Origin: Amoebophrya sp. A120
Lineage: Eukaryota > Protista > Dinoflagellata
DNA length: 17,130 nt
Assembly (NCBI GenBank): GCA_905178155.1
Contig: CAJINV010000025.1
Span: 360,934 to 378,063 of the forward strand
Direction of reading: 5' to 3'
The notes below the pieces were generated by a model, which was not told the origin of the DNA, ran no database searches, and worked only from the letters and a program-made list of their open reading frames with translations. Shown here in pieces: positions 2,445 through 17,130 of this stretch. Position 1 is the stretch's first letter, and each line of letters starts with the position of its first letter. The position numbers and the translations under genes are program-made.

Positions 2445-4871
2445 ATGGATACGTCTCGTCGTGGATTGCCCTGTTGGGCGATTGCCGTGCTGGTCGCGGT
2501 AGGGGGAGCTGTCCAAAGCGAGGGAGTGACATGGCGGAGGAGCTGCGGAGAGACGAGGGAGGAACTGCGTCCGCAGGAGCGGGAGGAACTGCGTCCGCAG
2601 GTATCCTGTGCAAAAGTACTATCCGATACTCGTAGAAATGCATTACAAATTTCCTCAGCGTGAGAAATGAAATTTGTAATGCCGATTCACCTTAAGGAAA
2701 AGCAAAAGATGTGCAATGCATGATTACAATACGAGTACGATGCTTTTGCATTGCATAGCAGGGGGGATGGACCGATGTCGACGACGTCTTCCGCTGCAGT
2801 GCGGAGTATGAAATGCAGAAATGTCTCCGTCTGGAAGATTGCTAGGCTTGTGATGCACGTTCTGCATGAGCCATGATCGATCTGTGATGCATGCCCTAGC
2901 ATCACAGATTAGATTTTTTGAGAGCATCTTGATGCGCCAGCCTATTCCGCATGACACATGCACTCTCCGCGTAGCAAAATTCACACTCCCTTTGCTGCCC
3001 ATGCAGTACTACAGATTTCGTTGGAAAAATCCAAATGCAGCGTCACAAGTTGCATTCCCATTCTCCCAGACCCAGATATATTTGCAGTCGATACGCAGGA
3101 CTACGAAGCGATGGCGCAAACCTGGGTTCCAGGCCTCCAGGCAGAACCTGCTGCTGGCTCAAGAACAGTTGGAGGCCTGTTGTCTACTTCCGCGAATTAT
3201 ATTGATAGAGCGGTGCGTCCGGTGCACATTTTCTTCGAAACGTTTGGAAAAACCACCCTGACAGGCGCATATAACTTGATGAAGCAGCTGGCAAAAACGC
3301 CGCACGTTAAAGTCACCTTTGTTGGCCCGGTGGGAAAGTTGATACAGAAAAAGGATCCGGCGACCGGCGAGCGGGTGATTGTGTATGCGGATCAGCTGCT
3401 ACCTGTATTAAATGTAAATATCGATCTGGGTCTAGAAGAATGCCAGGTTTGTCATGCATATTTTGCATATACCCGTGATGCCTGCAATGCAGGACCTAGC
3501 ATCACAGATTCTTAAAGGGCCTTCTTATGCGTGGTCCGCATGAGAAATGCCCACTCCGCGTAGCACAAACTGAACTACTCTTGCTGGTCATGCAATACAG
3601 ATGTTTTTCGCTTCCGAAGACAGCATCACAAGCTGCAACCTTCCAGACATCCAGGGATTTTTGCATTTGATAACCCGCGGCGAGCAACGACGTGAAAGGA
3701 GATCTATCCTGAGTAAAAACGTACCCGCACCAGAGTTGTAAGGCAGATTTGCAAAGACAGGAAGTCTTGTAATGCGCATCCCCATGAGAGCCATTTCCAA
3801 TCGTGTCTTGGAATTTGTGATGCTGTGAACAGGATGAGCAGATGAATCTGTGATGCGGCTGCACTTGCTAACCTGCACTACACTGCATAGTGCAACTTGT
3901 CACGCGTGACTCACAAAACTCCTAGGCTTGTGTTGCAAAATCCTCATCCTGACTCTGGTGTGGGTACGCTTTTACTCAGGATAAGATCTTCCAGATCCCG
4001 CCCTTGAGGGAGACAAGACCTATATGAATTGTGAAAGTGTCTGGGTCTGCAAACTTGTGAATGTGATGCTAAAATGTGCAACCAAGATGAAAACAGTTCC
4101 GAATGGAATGTAGCATGACAACTTTCCAGCACGCTTTCTCATAGGCAATCCGCATGAGAGACTCACTGCGTGTTTGCAGGTACAAAAGAGGCTGCGCCTC
4201 TTGGTGGTTGTGCAATACAGATTTCCTAGGTATAATGAAAAGCTAGCACTACAAGTTCCAACCTTTCAGACCCAGACATATTTTTTGCAATCGATAACCT
4301 ATCTTGCGAAACAACTGAGAAAGTACGATCGGCTGCAGCACAACGGGACGGTCTGGACGGAGAGGAAGTCGGAGAATGTTACTGTTCTTTGGGACTTTGC
4401 TGTCTCCGAAAGCGAGATGAAGAGCCTCGGCGCGGCCGGAGTGGAGTTCGTGCCCTGCCGCCCCCGAAGATACTTTTGGAGTGTGAAAAGCAACACCGCG
4501 GTGCGACAGATGTTGCCGCGTTTGTTTTTGACGGACGGGGGGGAAAATCCGGAGGGCTCTACTTGGGTTATCAAATGCAAATATGTCTGGGTCTGGAAGA
4601 TTGCCAGGTTTGTCATGCATATGTTACATGACCCATGACGATGAAGATGATGCTTCTAATGCATGACCTAGCATCGCAGATTTTCATTTTTAGAGGGCTT
4701 CCTGATGCTTATTCCGCGCAAACTGGACCCCTCTTGTTGGTCATGTAATGCAGATTTTTTTAGAATGCAGCAACAGCATCACAAGTTCCAACCGGCCTCC
4801 AGACCCAGACACTTTTGCATTTGATATCAGTTTTCCGCGAACAAGACAACCGAGACTGGCCGCGCCAGTTT
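2445..4871 (+). CDS. Split gene for an unknown, probably secreted or membrane-targeted protein; segments 2445-2601, 2763-2806, 3099-3405, 3678-3704, 3989-4022, 4302-4568, 4832-4871 (876 nt, 292 codons, no stop yet)
   Basis: Manual removal of six elements plus one 5-bp repeat each gives MDTSRRGLPCWAIAVLVAVGGAVQSEG...EELRPQ/GGWTDVDDVFRCSAE/DYEAMAQTW...ADQLLP/AASNDVKGD/LPDPALEGDKT/YLAKQLRKY...PEGSTW/VFREQDNRDWPRQF with no stop. The N-terminus is hydrophobic. Confidence 0.8.
2557..2601 (+). repeat. In-frame 24-bp tandem duplication (REELRPQE/REELRPQ)
   Basis: gggaggaactgcgtccgcagg occurs at 2557 and 2581. Confidence 0.9.
2602..2757. mobile_element. Family D short TAT...ATA element / putative introner (156 bp)
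   Basis: tatcctgtgcaaaagta...gatgcttttgcattgcata with perfect flanking gcagg/gcagg. Homologous to 11431-11581 and 11635-12000. Confidence 0.88.
2807..3093. mobile_element. Family A element / putative introner (287 bp)
   Basis: tatgaaatgcagaaatgtctccgtctggaaga...ctcccagacccagatatatttgcagtcgata; flanks cggag/cgcag (4/5). Confidence 0.88.
3406..3672. mobile_element. Family A element / putative introner (267 bp)
   Basis: tattaaatgtaaata...ctgggtctagaaga to ttccagacatccagggatttttgcatttgata; flanks acctg/acccg (4/5). Confidence 0.88.
3705..3983. mobile_element. Family B element / putative introner (279 bp)
   Basis: TIR tatcctgagtaaaaacgtacccgcaccagag / ctctggtgtgggtacgcttttactcaggata; perfect agatc/agatc. 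Confidence 0.92.
4023..4296. mobile_element. Family A element / putative introner (274 bp)
   Basis: tatgaattgtgaaagtgtctgggtctg...cagacccagacatattttttgcaatcgata; perfect accta/accta. Confidence 0.9.
4569..4826. mobile_element. Family A element / putative introner (258 bp)
   Basis: tatcaaatgcaaatatgtctgggtctggaaga...tccagacccagacacttttgcatttgata; flanks tgggt/tcagt (3/5). Confidence 0.9.
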
Positions 4872-7630: not shown

Positions 7631-8790
7631 AGACAACAAAACTAAGTACTCAAAGAAACACGAAGCGGAAGCGGTGAAGAGAAACACGCATAAGAGAAGC
7701 GGAATCGTGCGTTCCTGCAGCCCACAACAAGTATGAGATGGACTGAGCGATTCAAAATCAACGGATTCAAAAATTTTCTTTCATGTTCCAAGCTTTTCCT
7801 GACTCTTGAAAAGAACAGCAGCAAGGATGGGCTGTGTTCTGGGTGATTTTTTGCGTTCGCCGAAACGTCGCCCAGAAGAGTATCAAGCGAACAAGCTAGG
7901 TCGATCTCAACTTGACTTCGTGACTTAGGCGTACGTGAACGCAGAAAAACCGGGAAGGGGAACAAGGCGAGTGTCTGCATTCATAAACGTGAAGAATTCG
8001 CAGAAGCAAGGGGCAACAGAGTAGGCTACACAGCGGATACCCTCGAAGCCCAAGCCTGCCACTATTTGGCCCCAAGGCGCTTTTTTTGTTGGCATTTTTT
8101 GTTGCATTTTTTTGTTGGCATAGTAGCCCGCGCGGCCTCCGTGGACCTGGTCGAGGCTGCCGCAGGTTTACAACCTTTACGCGAGCAGGCCCAAAGGCAT
8201 TCCCACCACGGCGCACCAGAAGCCGCCGGCCATGCCCGGCGGTCGGCCCGCTTGGGTTTTGGAATGGGCCTTGGGTTGCCCTTCACATGGCTGACGCGCG
8301 TTTTTCCCGGGACACAACTTGGCGGCACTGTTGCGTCTTGTTTTTCCGATCATTTCAAGGCTTCATGCGCACGCGCTGACTTCATCCCCTACTTTGCAGC
8401 CTGTAAGTATAAAATGGCAAGTAGTTGCCTCAAGTTGAGACCGGCCACGTTGGCCTCTTTCGTAGTCTTCGGCCTACATATTTTACTTCCATAACCCGGC
8501 GCCGACATCTCCGCCACTTACCTGAAACTGCTCCGCGCGACGCCGAATCCGGGGACGTTTTGGAGGAGTTGATGGGATGCGTTTTAGTTGAAAAAAAATT
8601 TTTGAATCGCTTGGGTTTGAATCGCTCAGTCCATCTCATAACAAGGTACCTAATTCATTCCCAATCTAGACAACAAACACGAAGCGGAAGCGGTGAAGAG
8701 AAACACGCAATTCCTGCGGTGAACGAAGAGAAACACGTGCGCTCCGGCCGCCCACAAGGTACCTACTTGATTCCCAATCTAGGCATTGCA
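7631..8790 (+). repeat. Tandem pair of a ~110-130 bp unit (7631-7731+8646-8667 and 8668-8782); the first copy is split by the 909-bp element
   Basis: Both read agacaacaaa...acacgaagcggaagcggtgaagagaaacacgca...gcccaca..aggtaccta....attcccaatctag. Pieces recur at 10452-10474 and 12613-12634. Confidence 0.75.
7732..8640. mobile_element. Long family G TAT...ATA element (909 bp), non-autonomous
   Basis: tatgagatggactgagcgattcaaa / tttgaatcgctcagtccatctcata is a perfect 25-bp TIR extending imperfectly to ~55 bp; perfect acaag/acaag. Confidence 0.92.
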
Positions 8791-10444
8791 TTTTTCCAGA
8801 CATCTCATGCTAGGCATCACAGATGATAGCTAGGACTAGGTCGCGCAGCACCAGCGCGAACCTCGTGAGCGCCAGAATGGGTTACTAACCACCTCTGTGG
8901 CCCCATTTTTGTTCTCCCGTGGCCAGCCCTTGCCTACAAAAATGGACGACACCGGGGGAGCACAGGAGACGCGCAGCCAATGCCCACGCCGATGTCGGTG
9001 CGCAATCAATCTGGAGAGGGAGGCGAAGATGGCGCGCGCATGCTAGAGAAGCACGCACTATCAAAGGAGCAACTAAATCACTTCACATCTGAATCATAGG
9101 GCCAAAAAAAAAAATTTTTGAGTATTAATATAGCTTAGCATGAAGAAATGACTTCAGTTGTATGCACATGATGACGATGCGAATATGCCACCAGAATGGC
9201 AGTTTTGAAGGCTCAAATGAAGAGCTTTGATTTTGAACTAGATAGTTGATAGCTGCAGGACGATCTAGATAAGTAGCTAGCTGAAGATCATGGTTTATTT
9301 GATGAAAAAACAAAGAATATTAGAAGGATTTCGCCTTGTGGCTTCCGGCCGGCAGCCTCTCGCCAAGCTGGAGCGAGGAGCTGCTACGCCTCCAATGTGG
9401 AGAGCTGCTGGGAGACATAAACCGCCAATGAGCCGAAGAGCTGGCACTCCGTGACGAAGCAGCCCAACGGATTCGGAGCTGGTACTCCGTGACGAAGCAG
9501 GCCAACGGATTCGCCCGAATCCGTTGGGCTGCTTCGTCACGGAGTTCCAGCCCTCCGGCAGAAGAAGCACACATTCTTCCCCGCAGAGCTCCACGTTGGC
9601 GACGTCCCAGCTCCTCCAGCCTGGCGGGAGGCTGCCTGCCGGAAGCCACCAGGCGAAATCCCTTTACTTTTCTTTGTTTTTTCATTAAATAAACCATGAT
9701 CTTCAGCTACTTATTTAACTAGATCTTCCTGCAGCTATCAACTACCTAGTTTAATTAAGAAGCTCAACAGCAGAGCCTTCTTCTGCCGTACCTGGTTTGC
9801 ATTCTGCATCATATCAACGCAATCATTCATAAGTGAAAGCCACATGATTTGTTACTTGAAATACATTAAAAAAATTTTTTTTTTGGCCCTATGATTCAGA
9901 TGTGAAGTGATTCATTTGCTCCTTTGATAGCACGCGCGGCTTGTTTACTCATCTTGACGCGAATATATATAATTTAGCGAGCTCGTGGCCCCTCTCTCCG
10001 GCGACGCAGTGGCCCGCCACTGCCCGCTAGCGACCTCTGTTGGGGAGGGTTCGGGACTTGTTGCAGCCTCTGTTGCGCCCGGCGCTGCGACCTCTCGGCG
10101 CAGTGCTGGAGCACGGTTCGACCCACGTCTGTGGGCGGACAAGTGCGACGCCCGCAGCCACCTCTGTGGCGCGGACGTCGCGGCGCGGTCCCTGCTGCAC
10201 GCCTCGCTACTGTATCTAGTAGCACAAAAGACGCTGCGAAGCAGCGCAGATACACTTTATACAGAGCCGGAGTTGTTCCACCACTGTGAAGGGTGTCGTG
10301 GCCTTTTGTTGAGAACATACGGACTAGAGCAGCGGCCCCATGCGGCCGCAGAACTGCGGGGATTTGGGAAGTAGTTTGTGTTCGCCTCACGATGATCACC
10401 AAGATGCTACCCAAGTCACATCATGGATCAGGTACCAACAGGGC
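8750..10444 (+). repeat. Segmental duplicate 1 (paralogous to 13487-16384), interrupted by the palindromic element
   Basis: 8831-9058 matches 13552-13830 and 9950-10444 matches 15829-16384 (e.g. ttgcagcctctgttgc.cccggcgctgcgacctctc). Confidence 0.85.
9059..9929. mobile_element. 871-bp foldback (fully palindromic) element with TAT...ATA ends and probable 8-bp target duplication
   Basis: tatcaaaggagcaa..aatcacttcacatctgaatcatagggccaaaa matches the reverse complement at the right end, and the arms pair inward to an axis at 9514-9515. Flanks gcacgcac/gcacgcgc. Confidence 0.92.
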
Positions 10445-10479
10445 GGAAGCCGAAGCGGTGAAGAGAAACACGCATTACG

Positions 10480-10741
10480 TATCAAATGTAAAAATGTCTG
10501 GGTCTGGAAGATTCTAAACCTGTAATGCTGTCTCTGGATTCTAAAAAATTTGTATTGCATGACCAGCAAAAGGACTCCAGTTTGTGCTACGTGAAGAGGG
10601 CATTTCTCATGCGGTAGAGGCACCACAAAGTCCTCTGAAAATCTGTGATGCTAGGGCATGCATCACAGACATCATCGGCCATTCAAAATATGCATGACAA
10701 ACCTGGCAATCTTCCAGACCCAGACACTTTTGCAATGGATA
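10480..10741. mobile_element. Family A element (262 bp), left unit of a composite; opposite orientation to 3406-3672
   Basis: tatcaaatgtaaaaatgtctgggtctggaaga...tcttccagacccagacacttttgcaatggata; own flanks ttacg/ggtgg do not match. Confidence 0.92.
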
Positions 10742-10800
10742 GGTGGGCGCGACCTGCCACCCGGTGGGGCGGGAGGAATTCGACGTGCCTCCACCAGCAC

Positions 10801-11062
10801 TATCAAGTGTAAAAGTGTCTGGGTCTGGAAGATTGCAACTTGTCATGCTAAATCTGAAGCATGCAAAAATTTGTTTTGCATGAGTGCCAAAAGCTGTCCG
10901 CTTTTGACCAAGTTGAGAGGGAGTTTCTCATGCAGGAAAGGCATGATAGAGCCCTCAAAGAATCTGTCATGCTGGGTCTCGCATTCCAGACCTCATGAGT
11001 CATGGAAAACCTGCATCACAAATCTTGTATTTTTCCAGACCCAGACATTTTTACATTTGATA
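10801..11062. mobile_element. Family A (subtype A2) element (262 bp), right unit of a composite
   Basis: tatcaagtgtaaaagtgtctgggtctggaaga...ttccagacccagacatttttacatttgata; own flanks agcac/ttacg. Close inverted homologue of 16385-16646. Confidence 0.92.
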
Positions 11063-11096
11063 TTACGAATACCAAAACGAAAACCGAACTTCAAGA

Positions 11097-11403
11097 TATC
11101 AAAGTGAAAAAAGCCCCCACCCCATATTCAAAAGACGATTTGTGTTGGTGGATTCGTGTACTACGCAAATGAGCTTTGTAATTGCAGCAAGAGCTTGTCT
11201 GCATATAATTCTATAGCCCATTTGGGTGCTGCGCGCCCGGCTAGCAGCTGAGCATGTGAAACAAGGCTGACATATTAGGCGAAAACGCATGACAGACTCG
11301 CTGAACAATGCGCCACAAGGGTTCCGCTTGCCTTGTACGCAAGACAAAGCATCGCAAATTTTCCTCTCGATGTGGGGACGGGGGTGGATTTTTCCTTACG
11401 ATA
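11097..11403. mobile_element. B-related TAT...ATA element (307 bp)
   Basis: tatcaaagtgaaaaaagcccccacccca / ggggacgggggtggatttttccttacgata. The left end resembles 5795-5825; flanks caaga/cgcga (3/5). Confidence 0.72.
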
Positions 11404-11430
11404 CGCGACTCGCTTTCTCCGCGGCCTGCA

Positions 11431-11581
11431 TATGAACTGCAAAAGTATCGTATAAATGCATGACAAATTCCCTCAGCATGAGATTGAGCAATTAAAATTT
11501 GTAAGTATATGCGTATGTGACTTAACAAAAAGATTTGTAATGCATGACTGCAATACGAGTACGATACTTTTGCACAGGATT
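11431..11581. mobile_element. Family D element (~150 bp), right end eroded
   Basis: tatgaactgcaaaagtatcgta...tacgagtacgatacttttgcacaggat; same orientation as 2602-2757. Confidence 0.82.
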
Positions 11582-11634
11582 GCTTTCTATAGTTAGAACT
11601 CCGCGCCAGCTCCTTCACGACGATCGAACTGTCC

Positions 11635-12000
11635 TATCCTGTGCAAAAGTATCGGATTCGTATTGCAGTCATGCATTACAACAAATCTTTTTGTTAAGGT
11701 AAATCAGCATTGCAAATCAGTCAGGGTAGAGGAGCAATCCTCGGGCACATAGATAACAAAACGCTGCACATCTGAAAGAGTTTTTTTGAAAGAAGAAAAG
11801 AACAGACGTGCACCATCAGAAGTGTAGTGCTGGCGGTAGCACTTGTGCTGCACCATCAGAAGTGCGTAACTCGCATGCCGGGCGTGCCATGTCAGGATGT
11901 CAGGATAACGCAGAAGCTCAGTCAGTCAGTCAGCATTGCAAATTTTATCTCTCATGCTGAGAAATGCACTTATACGAGTACGATACTTGTGTAGTTCATA
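11635..12000. mobile_element. Family D element, inverted, containing a nested insertion
   Basis: tatcctgtgcaaaagtatcg...cgatacttgtgtagttcata; perfect tgtcc/tgtcc. Confidence 0.88.
11718..11929 (+). mobile_element. Probable non-LTR retroelement fragment (SINE or 5'-truncated LINE)
   Basis: The insert is absent from the other D copies, is flanked by a 14-bp direct repeat tcagcattgcaaat (11704-11717, 11930-11943), and ends in (TCAG)n. Confidence 0.6.
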
Positions 12001-12022
12001 TGTCCGGCGGGAAAATATCGAT

Positions 12023-12676
12023 ATGAGAGTGCATAAAAACAACTCGATCTCCACGTACTACCCAGCTGCAGCCGCCCGGGACGAGAGTGCGGCTCTACTG
12101 CTGAGCGCGGAAGATAACGCAGTGGGACAGCACGTTGAACAGGAGACGGAAAATGTTGAAAAAACCCCCGCCCACGGGGGCTGTTGCCAAGACTGCTGCA
12201 CGAAAAAGTGCGTGCTCATCCTTCTCCTCATATTTCTCGTCCTCGCAGGCGGTGCTTGCGTTTTAATTTTCGTTCCCTGGTTCGACGTATCAAATGTAAA
12301 AATGTCTGGGTCTGGAAGGATGCGAACTTGTGATGCTGTCTTCGGATTCTAAAAAAATCTGTATTGCATGACAAGCAATTATAGGGCTCCAGTTTGTGCT
12401 TCGCGGGAGGGCATTTGTCATGCGGAATAGGCATGATCAGGAGGGCCTCTAAAGCTCTGTGATGCTAGGTCATGCATTCCAGACCTCATAGGTCATGGGA
12501 AACCTGCATCACAAGTCTTGCAACCTTCAAGACCCAGACATATTTGCAATCCATACGACGGTTGGAGTGAATCTTTGTACACGAGATGGAGAGGAGGTGC
12601 GACGTTCCTGTCGCCCACAAGGTACCTAATTCATTCTCATATTCTAAGCATAACGCACTCCAGATCGGTCACATAA
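12023..12676 (+). CDS. Putative single-pass membrane protein, split (12023-12287, 12561-12676); may be a fragment and may extend upstream
   Basis: MRVHKNN...GGCCQDCCTKKCVLILLLIFLVLAGGACVLIFVPWFD/GWSESLYTRWRGGATFLSP...VT-TAA has a Cys cluster followed by a hydrophobic helix. The last ~20 codons lie in a dispersed repeat. Confidence 0.55.
12288..12555. mobile_element. Family A element / putative introner (268 bp), opposite orientation to those in 2445-4871
   Basis: tatcaaatgtaaaaatgtctgggtctggaagg...ccttcaagacccagacatatttgcaatccata; perfect cgacg/cgacg. Confidence 0.93.
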
Positions 12677-12711
12677 TTCTAGGCATCAACTGCACAAATA
12701 GGACTAGGTCG

Positions 12712-12962
12712 TATGGATTGCAAAAATGTCTGGGTCTGGAAGAATGCAAGTTTGTCATGCTTGTCTGGCATGGCTCGAAAATCTGTGTTGCATAGGCGCG
12801 AAAAGGCTCTCTTGCCTGTCATGCAAAAACCCAGTTTGCCATGCGGAATACGTAAGACATGGCAGCCAAAAAATTTGTCATGCGTAGGTGCGTATTGCAG
12901 TGCGTCTACCATTCACTTTTAGCATTACAAGTTTCCAGACCCAAACGTTTTTACATTTGATA
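12712..12962. mobile_element. Family A element (251 bp)
   Basis: tatggattgcaaaaatgtctgggtctggaa...ttccagacccaaacgtttttacatttgata; perfect ggtcg/ggtcg; empty paralogous site at 8831-8870. Confidence 0.93.
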
Positions 12963-13023
12963 GGTCGCCAGACATCACCACCAGCGCGAAGAACCTCGTG
13001 AGCCCTGGGGGTATTGTGCGGGA

Positions 13024-13233
13024 TATCCCACGAAAAAACTGTTTTACTGTGATGATCTTGCAAGATCTGCATCGCAGGTTTGTATACACATGACACAGAA
13101 AATTTGCATTGTGCGCTTCCCAAGGGAAAACACGCTAAAAAATCCAATGTCTTGCAGGCGTAGCAAGACAAATCGTTCCGTGCTCCATTCTCTGCATCAC
13201 AAGTTCACAGTGAAACAGTTTTTTCTTGCGATA
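13024..13233. mobile_element. Family F element (210 bp)
   Basis: tatcccacgaaaaaactgttttactgtga / tcacagtgaaacagttttttcttgcgata; perfect cggga/cggga. Confidence 0.9.
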
Positions 13234-13281
13234 CGGGAGCAAAACAAAGTGAAGTGGAAATATCAAAGCGACGCAAGCTGT

Positions 13282-13487
13282 TATCCCACGAAAAAAGTGT
13301 TACAGTTACACATTTGTTGTCAATTCCGCAACACAAATTTTCTCTGCATGAGACTTGTAATGCGAAGATCATAAGGGAAAACAGGAAGGAAAGGAGGCTC
13401 CGAAGCATTTCCTGCATGAGAAAGGTTGTCTCTGTTGCCAGTCTTGCATGACAATGTGTAACTGTTGTAACACTTTTTTCTTCTATA
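13282..13487. mobile_element. F-related element (206 bp)
   Basis: tatcccacgaaaaaagtgttacagttaca / tgtaactgttgtaacacttttttcttctata; flanks gctgt/attca do not match. Confidence 0.8.
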
Positions 13488-16384
13488 ATTCATTCTCATA
13501 TTCTAAGCATAACGCACTCCAGATCGATCACATTCTAGGCATGATCACAAATAGGACTACTAGGTCCTCGCGCAGCACCTCCAGCGCGAACCTCGTGAGC
13601 AGGGCCGGAATTTTTATGGGCCAACCACCTCTGTGGAAGGAAGGACCCCACTTTTGTTCTCCCGTGGCGGCGGTGGCCAGAATTAGAATTTATGCCTACA
13701 AAAATGAAAATAAATGGAGGACAGCGGGGGAGCGCAGCAGACACACAGCCAATGCCTACGCCGATGGCGGTGCGCGAACTGGTAGGAGGGAGGCGAAGAT
13801 GACGCTCGCATGCTCTCGTAAGAGAAGCGTTCGCGGCTTGATGTTGGTCACCCTTTTTTATGTTCACACACGACTCGCAAGGCACATCCTGACGTCTATG
13901 GCTCATTTGGAGTCGCGTTTCAAACTTTCACACGCAGAGCGCGGCGATTCGCAAGTTTAGCCGAACCGGCGTAGCGATTTTGTGTCTGGTTTTCTGACAT
14001 TGTGTGCCCATCACAGAATTCGTGTGATAGGCACGCAACACTTTGAGGGGGCCAGAAATAAAACTGCCGCGCCACTTCGGCTGTACTTGCGACCTTTGGT
14101 GCCTTGCGCGTGACAGTTCGATCCGCGTGTCCAAGCGAGGTGACTGTCGACGTAACACGCAAAGCCTGGGAACGAATTTCTGTGAGTCACCTGAATAAAA
14201 TTGGTGCTCAGATCGGTTTTGCTGGTCAGGGCACAAATCTTACGCAGGCAGCCTACAGAAATTAGGTCTCAGGACCCCACATCCGAGAACTTGTCGGATG
14301 GGACTTCACATCCGAGGAACTCCCGGACGTGAACTCACATCCAAGAATTCCTCGTGTGTCAGCTCACATCCGAGAACTTCTCGGCTGTGCGCAGACATCC
14401 CAGGAGTTAGTATTTGATGTGGCGAAAATCCTTGCGAACAAATTGCTGGAAGTCACCTGCGTAAGATTTGTGGTCCGATCGGCAATACCTATTGGAGCAC
14501 AACCCCTACGCAGGTGAGTTACGGATATTAGCTCTCAGGATTTCCGCCGCATCACGAAATTCTTGACGCAGCGAAGATCCTGGGAAATAATTTCTGTAAG
14601 CCACCTGCGTAAGATTTGTCTTCTCACTGGTAATACCGATCTGGGCACAAATCTTATGCAGGTGACTTACAGAAATTACTTCCCAGGATTGGATCATCAG
14701 TGTGTCCAAGTGTGGCGACTGGAGACGCAGTACGCAAATCCCAGAAGTGCATTTCTTTGGGGCACGAAAGCCGAAGTTGTAGGAGCGCGAGTTCTGCTCT
14801 GCTCTTAGGTAAAGAAAACTCGCGCAGCGCTTTTTCCTCCTGGCCTTCTAGAAGTGTGCTTCTGAACACATCTGCAGAGCGATCTGCTTTTTCTTCTAGG
14901 GAGAAGACGCAGCCTCTGCTAGAAGAAGAAGCAGCTTCTTCTAGAAGCTGCGTTTTCTAGAAGAAAAAAAGTCTGCGTCTTCTACAGGAAGACCAGCCTT
15001 CTAGAAGAAGACAAAACTTCGCGCCTTCTTCTAGAAAAAGACGCAGCTTCTTCTAGAACAAGAAGCTGCGTTTTCTTTTAGGAACTCAGTTTCTAGAAGA
15101 AAACTTCCGGAAAAAGTGTTCGGACAGGGGGTTTGCAAAGGGGTCTTCAAAGGGGTGGTCGCGCAAAGTGCCTTAGTCACGACCTAACAAAGGGTCAACG
15201 AAAGGGGTCAACGAAAGGCTCTCTCGGAAGGGGGTTTCCGCGAGACCTTTTCTGAAAGAAGTCAAGAAGACTTCTTTTAGAGTCTGAAAGAAATCCAGCG
15301 GATTTCTTTTAGACTCTCAAAGGATTTCTTCTAGAGTCTCAAGGTGCCTCAGAGGCACCTTGAGATTCTAGAAGAAATCCTGGGAACTCATTTCTGTAAG
15401 TCCGTTGCGTAGGATTTGCACTCAGGTCGGGATTACCGGTCGAAACGCAGATCCTACGCAACCTACTTACAGAAATGAGTTCCCAGGATCCCACATCCGA
15501 GAATTCCTCGGATGTCAGCTCACATCCGAAGGGTTCGCGGAAGTGAGCTGCAGGAGAACTTTCGCGCGCAAAGTGCCGAACTTTGGCGCCCTGCTTGTGA
15601 AAGTTCGATCCGCGTGTCCAAATGCGGCGATGTAGAAAAAACACGGGAATTCTGGGAGCTAATTCCTGGAAGTCGCGTGCGTAGGGTGTGTAGTCAGACC
15701 GGGACTACCGGTCGAAACGCAGAGCCCGCACACCTGCTTCAAAATTTTTGAAAGCCGAAGCTTTTCGGAACTGCTCTGAGAACTAATTTCTGAAAGCTCT
15801 GATATGTTCACACACGACTCGCAAGGCACATCCTGACGTGTATGGCGCGAATATGTAGAATCCAGGGGCTCGCAGCCCCTTCTTCCGGCGACGTAGTGGC
15901 CGAGCGAGCTTTGCGAGGGCGCACGCCCCTCGTAGCGAAGCGAGCCGTCACTACTTACCCGCTAGCGACCTCTGCTGTTCTTGCAGCCTCTGTTGCACCC
16001 GGCGCTGCGACCTCTCGTCGCAGTGCTGGAGCATGCCTCGACCCAAGTGGTCTATGGGCGGACAAGAGCTGCGACGCGCGCAGCGGACGTCGCGGCGCGG
16101 TCCCTGCTGCGCGCCTCGCTGCTATGTATCTAGTAGTGCAAAAGACGCTGCGAAGGAGCGCAGATTATACACCTTTACTTCATACAGAGCCCCCGGAGTT
16201 CCACCACTCTGAAGGGTGTAACCTTTTGAGAACATACGAACTAAACAAGCTGCCAGCCCGTCAAGGGGCGCCAGCGCTCTGCTGGGGATAGATTTGGGGA
16301 GAATTTTGTGCTCGCGCCACGATCATATAGGTAGCAAACCCTCGTACCCAAATTACATCATGGATCTTCAGGTACCAACAGGGC
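13487..16384 (+). repeat. Segmental duplicate 2 (13487-13902 and 15803-16384), interrupted by a 1.9-kb insert
   Basis: 13487-13600 also matches 12628-12711+12968-13003; otherwise see 8750-10444. Confidence 0.82.
13903..15802. repeat. 1.9-kb non-coding insert of repeated hairpin units, ~30-bp tcacatcc repeats and a TTCTAGAA-rich tract, bounded by a 44-bp direct repeat
   Basis: tatgttcacacacgactcgcaaggcacatcctgacgt(c/g)tatggc at 13859-13902 and 15803-15846. Hairpins at 14165-14273, 14430-14539, 14577-14689, 15377-15489 and 15651-15745. Confidence 0.82.
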
Positions 16385-16646
16385 TATCAAATGTAAAAAT
16401 GTCTGGGTCTGGAAGAATGCAAGATTTGCAATGGAGGTTTTCCATGACCCATGAGGTCTAGAATGCGAGACCCAGCACGACAGATTCTTTGCGGTCTCTA
16501 TCATGCCTCTCCTGCATGAGAAACTTCCTCTCAACTTGGTCAAAAGCGGACAGCTTTTGGCACTCACGCAACACAGATTTTTGCATCATTTAGATTTAGC
16601 GTGACAAGTTCTAATCTTCCAGACCCAGACAATTTTACATTTGATA
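16385..16646. mobile_element. Family A2 element (262 bp), inverted relative to 10801-11062
   Basis: tatcaaatgtaaaaatgtctgggtctggaaga...tcttccagacccagacaattttacatttgata; flanks agggc/gagac do not match. Confidence 0.92.
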
Positions 16647-16648
16647 GA

Positions 16649-17130
16649 GACGTGGCCGGGCCATTAAACGGCGGGGGCGATGATCGAACAAGTTCGGATC
16701 TTGGAGGCGATCAAGCCCAAGTTCGCTTCCATAGATCGGATCTATGGAAGCGTCAGGTTTGAAATCGTCAAAGTTGAAATAATTTGTAATGCATAAAATG
16801 CATGGCCCGAGGCACGTGCGTTGCAGAGCAGGCAAGTGAGGCCGATTGTCCGCCTGTTTGGGGTTCCAGCTCGAGCTGCTAAAGTAGCATGAGAAAATCG
16901 CTCGTCTTTGCCTAAACAGCGTGACAAACTAGATGTAGGGACCACCGAAATTTGTCATGCGCCACTTAGAAACTGGGTTCCAACTGGCATCCATTTTATG
17001 CATGACAAATTATTTCAACTTTGTCGATTTCAACTCTGACACATCCATACGATGGGGGTGGTGGCGATCAGGGTGGTGGCGATGGCGATGGTGGTGGCTT
17101 CTCTCCACAGGAGCCTCCTGATGAACCTGA
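16649..17130 (+). CDS. Partial split CDS, Gly/Asp-rich; segments ~16649-16742 and 17055->17130
   Basis: The joined frame DVAGPLNGGGDDRTSSDLGGDQAQVRFHRSD/(R or G)GGGDQGGGDGDGGGFSPQEPPDEP is open, with GGD motifs on both sides of the element. Confidence 0.6.
16743..17049. mobile_element. Family C element (307 bp), inverted relative to 6153-6459
   Basis: tatggaagcgtcaggtttgaaatcgtcaaagttgaaata / tatttcaactttgtcgatttcaactctgacacatccata; flanks ggatc/cgatg (3/5). Confidence 0.9.

What the first reader, a model, noticed from the sequence alone, without database searches (positions are those of the whole stretch)
10475..11067. Composite unit: two elements plus a captured 59-bp spacer share one outer duplication
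Seen: neither 10480-10741 nor 10801-11062 has matching flanks, but the pair is bounded by ttacg/ttacg. The GC-rich spacer 10742-10800 is open (GRDLPPGGAGGIRRASTS) and is 5+54 nt, so excising the two units separately would add 18 codons in frame. Inference: two neighbouring introners moved together via their outer ends and carried the intervening mini-exon, a route to exon shuffling analogous to bacterial composite transposons.
Basis: partly seen in the sequence, partly recalled or inferred. Interest (0 to 1): 0.75.

Follow-up and report, generated by a model that had tools for sequence, protein, structure and literature searches.

The report
Paired introners carrying a gene piece
Two small jumping introns enclose a 59-base stretch resembling part of a gene found elsewhere in the genome and share a single insertion scar, so they likely moved together as one unit, but the piece probably landed ahead of a gene rather than inside its protein code.

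Summary
Two complete 262-bp TIR elements (73% alike, separate subfamilies) flank a 59-nt spacer. Their own flanks match 1/5 and 0/5; the pair's outer flanks match 5/5. In a census of 357 such elements, 327 keep a 4-5/5 duplication, and this is the only composite among 241 neighbour pairs (chance about 4e-4 over all pairs). The spacer is host-gene DNA: a roughly 90% identical homologue lies in uninterrupted contigs of 4 of 4 runs laid. That homologue has no element at either junction, so it is not the predicted donor. A second element-spacer junction, differing by a few letters, is in both DNA-type runs; it may be the donor paralogue, a sibling or a duplicate. Best reading: two introners inserted 59 nt apart in a gene copy, then moved by their outer ends, like maize macrotransposition (0.6). 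Main rival: conversion into a resident element (0.2). Exon shuffling is not shown. No ATG lies in the non-element DNA between here and the likely start codon at 12023, no splicing was seen, and frame neutrality is a one-in-three property. Real and rare: a new variant of a known kind.

The parts
10475..10479 (+). Left copy of the 5-bp outer duplication (TTACG)
   Evidence: Sequence
10480..10741 (.). E1: complete 262-bp non-autonomous TIR element of the TAT...ATA introner family; left end equals the family consensus 30/30, right end deviates at 4 of 30 positions
   Evidence: closest relative among those fetched 92% (L001); G|TAT...ATA|G gives a GT-AG frame
10742..10800 (+). Captured 59-nt piece of a host gene (likely coding exon); begins GGTGG and ends AGCAC, the inferred inner halves of the two original duplications
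   Evidence: Homologue in uninterrupted contigs of X1, X2 (926 nt) and X5, X6 (2618, 2610 nt): 3 other letters in 41 nt, then a 3-nt gap and 1 substitution
10801..11062 (.). E2: complete 262-bp element of another subfamily (73% to E1, 91% to 16385-16646 reversed); right end equals consensus 30/30, left end deviates at 2 of 30
11063..11067 (+). Right copy of the 5-bp outer duplication (TTACG)
   Evidence: Sequence
9955..10444 (.). Context: right part of a larger repeat (second copy 15843-16384, 74-78% alike, many indels not multiples of 3); multi-copy in run X1
11068..12022 (+). Context: short non-element pieces and three further elements; no ATG in the non-element pieces; likely 5' leader or upstream region
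12023..12598 (+). Context: coding exons of the downstream gene (membrane-anchor segment), interrupted by element 12288-12555; Met 12023 aligns with a Met of P0001
   Evidence: 62% to P0001, 57% to P0002 (PF04488 listed for P0002)

Best explanation
Two complete non-autonomous TIR introners enclose a 59-nt piece of a host gene and share one 5-bp outer duplication, and they likely moved here together when a transposase supplied in trans cut at the two outer ends. Inferred order of events: E1 and E2 inserted independently, 59 nt apart, into a copy (paralogue or allele) of the gene, making GGTGG and AGCAC duplications; the transposase later paired E1's left end with E2's right end, both perfect consensus ends, excised E1-spacer-E2, left the outer halves of the old duplications behind, and inserted the 583-bp unit at TTACG. 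It likely landed upstream of the start codon of a gene, so the cargo is probably a dead passenger or part of a 5' leader. Shown: anatomy, rarity, host-gene origin of the spacer, absence of chimerism inside the elements. Inferred: the donor with both elements, the enzyme, the order of events, the non-coding landing site.
For: Outer 5/5 match with both inner flanks unmatched against a family norm of 327 of 357 at 4-5/5. Both elements are full length and follow their own subfamilies along the whole interior, which a capture inside one element would not give. The spacer's ends coincide to the base with where homology to an uninterrupted gene starts and where the element-free gene runs on, with 0 and 1 nt of microhomology to the element ends (read by eye). 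Substrate is common: 95 of 241 neighbour pairs have 100 nt or less between them. Two distinct element-end-plus-spacer contigs (0 and 2 other letters) in both X1 and X2, and a C/A split at 10770 in which the other version agrees with the gene, point to a second element-spacer-element copy. Outer ends 30/30, inner ends decayed. Precedent: a maize Ds/Ac pair mobilised up to 100 kb of intervening DNA (passage in PMC3260210).
Against: The donor was not seen: the readable homologue has no elements, and the second copy could be a segmental duplicate of this very locus (11118-11338 has a similar depth, 48.7, and 11324-11450 has 97.6 in X1) or an allele. No empty site was seen. Perfect ends are common (48 and 66 of 162 left and right ends, inflated by how loci were picked), so the 30/30 match is weak support and fits a single resident element as well. 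No second composite in 240 other pairs. PMC7789003 reports no candidate transposase in the strain whose introners look like these (passage).
Confidence: 0.6

Rival explanations
1. Ectopic gene conversion or gap repair: one resident element with a TTACG duplication broke, and its two ends copied E1-spacer-E2 from a donor gene by pairing within the shared terminal repeats; no transposase acted on the pair.
For: [quoted passage not shown]
Against: Neither element is chimeric inside: E1 follows its clade (0.78-0.92) and not E2's (0.61-0.73) across all 7 interior segments, E2 likewise, so at least one switch would have to fall within about 30 terminal bases.
Confidence: 0.2
2. The unit is a working shuffled exon: both elements are spliced separately and the 19-20 captured codons are read, in the donor's frame, at the N-terminus of the downstream gene's protein.
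For: With one choice of boundary for the element at 11431, a 240-codon open frame runs from 10328 through the spacer in the donor frame into the 12002 exon; E1 has GT-AG ends; the neighbouring gene stays open across six such elements under frame-keeping trims.
Against: The other boundary gives a 252-codon open frame with the spacer in a different frame, so the test does not discriminate; the upstream part lies in a repeat with frame-shifting indels; no ATG in the 34 nt between that repeat and E1 or in the pieces down to 12022; P0001 and P0002 show no match to the spacer or left flank; no RNA-guess contig with the window's version of the spacer in 2 of 2 such runs (contigs drop rare forms). This rival concerns the consequence and is compatible with either mechanism of movement.
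Confidence: 0.08
3. Filler capture or multi-step rearrangement: the exon piece was copied from the element-free gene during repair between two elements inserted at one site, or the pair is what is left of deletions between elements.
For: The only readable homologue lacks both elements; the region is crowded with nested repeats and another element (16385) has lost its duplication next to a larger repeat.
Against: No microhomology at the junctions, both element ends complete, and an in-frame 3-nt difference from the element-free gene fits descent from another gene copy.
Confidence: 0.1
4. Chance or assembly artefact: two unrelated decayed elements whose outer flanks happen to match.
For: A single 5-mer; 3 of 576 other pairs within 3 kb also match 5/5 outside, but those keep their own duplications. 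Outer junctions not individually confirmed.
Against: About 4e-4 over all 241 pairs; inner junctions present without differences in X1; the spacer belongs to a gene whose flanks are not here.
Confidence: 0.02

Closest known systems
Amoebophrya introner elements, A120 type (PMC7789003, sections 10-11 read)
   Same: TAT + 7 nt + AAA terminal motif, inverted repeats, 5-bp direct repeats, about 260 nt, no coding capacity, many per gene; six such elements interrupt the gene at 2445-4871 without breaking its frame
   Different: Described as single elements, each with its own direct repeat; here two elements share one. Splicing at this site not shown.
Maize Ac/Ds macrotransposon (one sentence in PMC3260210 citing Huang and Dooner 2008; the primary paper was not held)
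   Same: Two separate linked TIR elements mobilise the DNA between them by their outer ends
   Different: There one end is an autonomous Ac and movement was observed; here both ends are 262-bp non-autonomous introners, the cargo is 59 nt, and movement is inferred from a scar
Bacterial composite transposons (Tn5 type) and MITE-flanked integrons (PMC10969869, passages)
   Same: Two complete elements flank a cargo, one outer duplication; better outer than inner ends (decay of inner ends in Tn5/Tn10 is recalled, from no call)
   Different: No transposase in either element, flanking elements only 73% alike, cargo is an exon fragment and not a gene
Pack-TIR / Pack-MULE (PMC8277862, abstract and passages)
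   Same: A host gene fragment inside a TIR-bounded unit with one duplication; GC-rich cargo
   Different: Pack elements hold cargo inside one element with internal breakpoints and microhomology; here the cargo sits between two whole elements with flush ends

Membership tests
Amoebophrya A120-type introner element | Terminal inverted repeat beginning TAT, 7 looser bases, then 3 or more A | tested here: met
   Ends against section 11 of PMC7789003
Amoebophrya A120-type introner element | Member of a repeated family | tested here: met
   163 distinct family copies in the window and 131 loci; closest 92%
Amoebophrya A120-type introner element | Own 3-5 nt direct repeat | tested here: not met
   1/5 and 0/5 singly; met only by the pair, and by 132 of 163 family copies at 5/5
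Amoebophrya A120-type introner element | Spliced from a transcript at this site | tested here: inconclusive
   No joint from X5 or X13 among the 15 rows shown of 103; X13 gave only 9 reads
Eukaryotic macrotransposon / composite TIR unit | Two complete elements with intervening host DNA and one outer duplication | tested here: met
Eukaryotic macrotransposon / composite TIR unit | Donor locus with both elements, or empty target site | tested here: inconclusive
   Element-free homologue and an unplaced second junction copy; no genome held; 0 hits of the spacer in 131 loci and of a junction pattern in metagenome contigs
Eukaryotic macrotransposon / composite TIR unit | Movement by a transposase acting on the outer ends | not testable with these tools
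   Inferred from the 5-bp duplication and the ends
Bacterial composite transposon (Tn5 type) | Transposase encoded by a flanking element | tested here: not met
   262-bp elements, too short to encode one; definition from PMC10969869
Bacterial composite transposon (Tn5 type) | Cargo of whole accessory genes | tested here: not met
   59-nt exon fragment
Pack-TIR / Pack-MULE | Cargo inside a single element, breakpoints internal, microhomology | tested here: not met
   Two whole elements of different subfamilies, flush junctions

The most novel reading that the evidence does not exclude
Dense introner invasion turns each mini-exon between two introners into a mobile cassette: the pair E1-exon-E2 has moved as a unit, perhaps more than once (the second junction copy), and because both ends can still be spliced, such cassettes can drop ready-made exons into other transcripts, a direct route from intron gain to exon shuffling.
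Probability: 0.15. Interest if true: 0.75.

Novelty: new variant of a known kind. Interest (0 to 1): 0.45.

Why it matters
If the outer-end mechanism is right, a single scar shows that these introners are moved by an enzyme that reads DNA ends in trans, which bears on an open point in PMC7789003 (no transposase found; copy-paste or RNA routes discussed). It also shows that an introner-invaded genome can move exon pieces, and gives a simple genome-wide test (adjacent elements without own duplications but with a shared outer one). The event looks rare (1 of 241 pairs, and that one was pre-selected) and here seems to have made no new protein, so its evolutionary weight is unproven.

Tried and rejected
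No whole genome is held and the fetched loci have no searchable genome behind them, so the BLASTN for the donor could not be run genome-wide. Spacer within the window: best other match 12 nt. Spacer and flanks in 131 loci: 0 hits. Junction pattern in metagenome contigs: 0; element end in viral contigs and prokaryote genomes: 0. Protein search with the 41-residue frame through the spacer: 4 candidates, none at E<=10 (weak). No RNA holder was on record; X5 had no depth over 10150-10457 and 11162-11293, which is no evidence of silence. X13 raw reads covered almost nothing. RNA folding: the unit folds outer-with-outer and inner-with-inner, but so do 9 of 10 ordinary same-family pairs, so rejected as evidence. 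Open-frame test through the unit: rejected as non-discriminating. Depth as copy number: single-copy depth in X1 is uncertain (about 20-35), so the 1.5-1.9-fold ratio is only suggestive. Pfam: 0 families at cut-off for 6 translated pieces. Rfam 9900-12100: 0. Other orphans: none of 12 had a composite partner within its locus; several lie near contig ends. Earlier findings: 3 look-ups, nothing.

Full report
1. Observation. The anatomy is exactly as reported: TTACG, E1 (10480-10741), 59 nt, E2 (10801-11062), TTACG. E1's own flanks match at 1 of 5 positions, E2's at 0 of 5. E1's left end and E2's right end form a 30/30 inverted repeat; each element's own ends match 26/30 and 28/30. E1 and E2 are 73% alike in the same orientation; E2 is 91% like 16385-16646 reversed, E1 79% like 12288-12555. 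The spacer is 73% G+C and has no stop in any of 6 frames.

2. What the elements are. They fit the introner elements described for an Amoebophrya strain: inverted repeat starting TAT, seven looser bases, then a run of A, with 3-5 nt direct repeats (PMC7789003, sections 10 and 11 read whole, abstract, passages, and supplement legends; the supplementary figures themselves could not be seen and may show more). The gene at 2445-4871 carries six related elements and stays open (0 stops in 11 of 12 frame-keeping trims, 1 stop in the twelfth) but breaks under 5 of 5 frame-shifting trims (4-10 stops), so the family does behave as introns in exons. An exon of the downstream gene hits 2 proteins that their source labels Amoebophrya. 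The window's own record was not identified.

3. Is the outer match chance? With the window, they hold 163 distinct copies of this family: 132 with a 5/5 duplication, 20 at 4/5, 6 at 2/5 or less, of which two are E1 and E2. Over all TAT...ATA families: 357 elements, 278 at 5/5, 49 at 4/5, 16 at 3/5, 14 at 2/5 or less; 241 neighbour pairs, 95 with 100 nt or less between them; only 1 of 241, the window's, is two orphans with a shared outer 5-mer. Unrelated flanks match 5/5 at 0.0016. The joint chance is about 2e-6 per pair, 4e-4 over 241. So the unit is real and rare.

4. Where the spacer comes from. Laying public runs on the region gave the main result. In 4 of 4 runs one contig matches 10742-10782 with 3 other letters; its match starts at the first base of the spacer, and its loose letters behind resume the spacer after a 3-nt gap with one substitution and run on past 10800 into non-element sequence. 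The same loose letters stand in the DNA-type runs (926-nt contig) and in the RNA-guess runs (2618 and 2610 nt, longer than the DNA contig as a spliced message would be; the RNA label is the tool's guess; the four runs are two samples). Junction microhomology with the element ends is 0 and 1 nt.

5. A second copy. X1 and X2 each hold two different contigs over the E1-end/spacer junction (0 and 2 other letters in 10723-10767) that converge on one spacer/E2-start contig; X1 reads C at 10770 and X2 reads A, the gene's letter. Depth of the shared contig is 38 and 64 against 20 and 44 for the gene contig. This points to a second element-spacer-element copy about 97% like the window's. Its outer flanks cannot be read, because contigs break in the elements. 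It may be the donor paralogue, a sibling composite, or a duplicate of this locus; DNA just downstream is also at two- to several-fold depth, so the last is a live option.

6. Mechanism. Both elements follow their own subfamily along the whole interior (E1: 0.78-0.92 to its 12 closest, 0.61-0.73 to E2's; E2: 0.78-0.94 against 0.55-0.75). Two whole, unrelated elements with flush ends around a contiguous exon piece are most simply two insertions into a gene copy, followed by movement of the pair. A fresh 5-bp duplication of the family's length at perfect consensus ends suggests a transposase acting on the outer ends (0.6). Conversion of a resident element by template switches within the terminal repeats makes the same picture and is not excluded (0.2); perfect ends are too common to decide. 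Filler capture or deletion (0.1) and chance (0.02) fit worse. No enzyme was found here; PMC7789003 found none in the matching strain, while PMC12130899 (passages) reports families there with integrase-like frames inside TIRs.

7. Consequence at the landing site. The unit lies 35 nt right of a larger repeat whose two copies in the window differ by many indels that are not multiples of 3. None of the 6 non-element pieces from 10446 to 12022 holds an ATG, and Met 12023 aligns with a Met of P0001 (in the annotated protein it is residue 46, so the true start is uncertain). Modelled splicing gives long open frames under both choices of one doubtful boundary, with the spacer in the donor frame in one and not in the other. 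A spacer length that keeps frame is found in 49 of 128 neighbour pairs. Trimming one base each side, which gives GT-AG for E1, adds 20 codons, not 18. No splice joint was seen in the rows shown. The exon-shuffling outcome is therefore possible but unsupported.

8. Comparison and novelty. It works like maize Ac/Ds macrotransposition (one passage in PMC3260210; primary paper not held) and resembles bacterial composite transposons and MITE-flanked integrons (PMC10969869, passages) without meeting their membership features. It differs from Pack-TIRs (PMC8277862, abstract and passages) in having two whole elements. I found no report of paired introners moving an exon in searches (introner + composite transposon: 0 papers; introner + exon shuffling: 5 listed, seen as listings only; 25 of 932 listed), nor in term look-ups within PMC12130899, PMC11282704 and PMC9860276 (passages). 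The 2023 Current Biology paper on dinoflagellate introners was not seen. Verdict: real, rare, a new variant of a known kind; interest 0.45.

Noticed in passing
window 7720-10444 and 12613-16384: A larger repeat occurs twice, with GCCC...GGTACC at the left and GGTACC...GGGC at the right end (a loose inverted repeat, 12 of 24), itself riddled with introners; no clear duplication at its flanks.
   Followed up: partly
window 16385-17130: Element 16385-16646 has no own duplication and abuts the end of that larger repeat; coding-like pieces follow it and weakly resemble the end of P0001 (E 7.4), so the 12023 gene may resume here after a 4-kb insertion; a larger composite running off the window is not excluded.
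   Followed up: partly
window 2445-4871: Gene with a signal-peptide-like start and six introners, open for 298 codons when one base is trimmed each side of every element (net +3 nt), whatever the splice dinucleotides; no Pfam family at cut-off.
   Followed up: partly
window 9059-9929; L026 6329-6608; L056 2085-2443: Some TAT...ATA elements have 8-bp flank duplications (7/8, 8/8, 6/8) instead of 5 bp.
   Followed up: no
L066 6980-7457: Two adjacent elements 60 nt apart both lack own duplications; outer flanks match only 2/5; a third element starts near the contig end, so a longer unit cannot be tested.
   Followed up: partly
window 7662-7691, 8681-8709, 8725, 10446-10475: A motif of about 30 nt is repeated on both sides of the larger repeat; the composite's left duplication directly follows one copy.
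   Followed up: no
window 11324-11450: An element end, a 27-nt piece and the next element start are at about 98 depth with no differences in X1, so this junction is multi-copy; it could be another mobile pair or a segmental duplication.
   Followed up: no
window 14158-15750 and 14908-15080: Other repeat families: palindromic elements of about 115 nt and short tandem repeats rich in TTCTAGAA.
   Followed up: no
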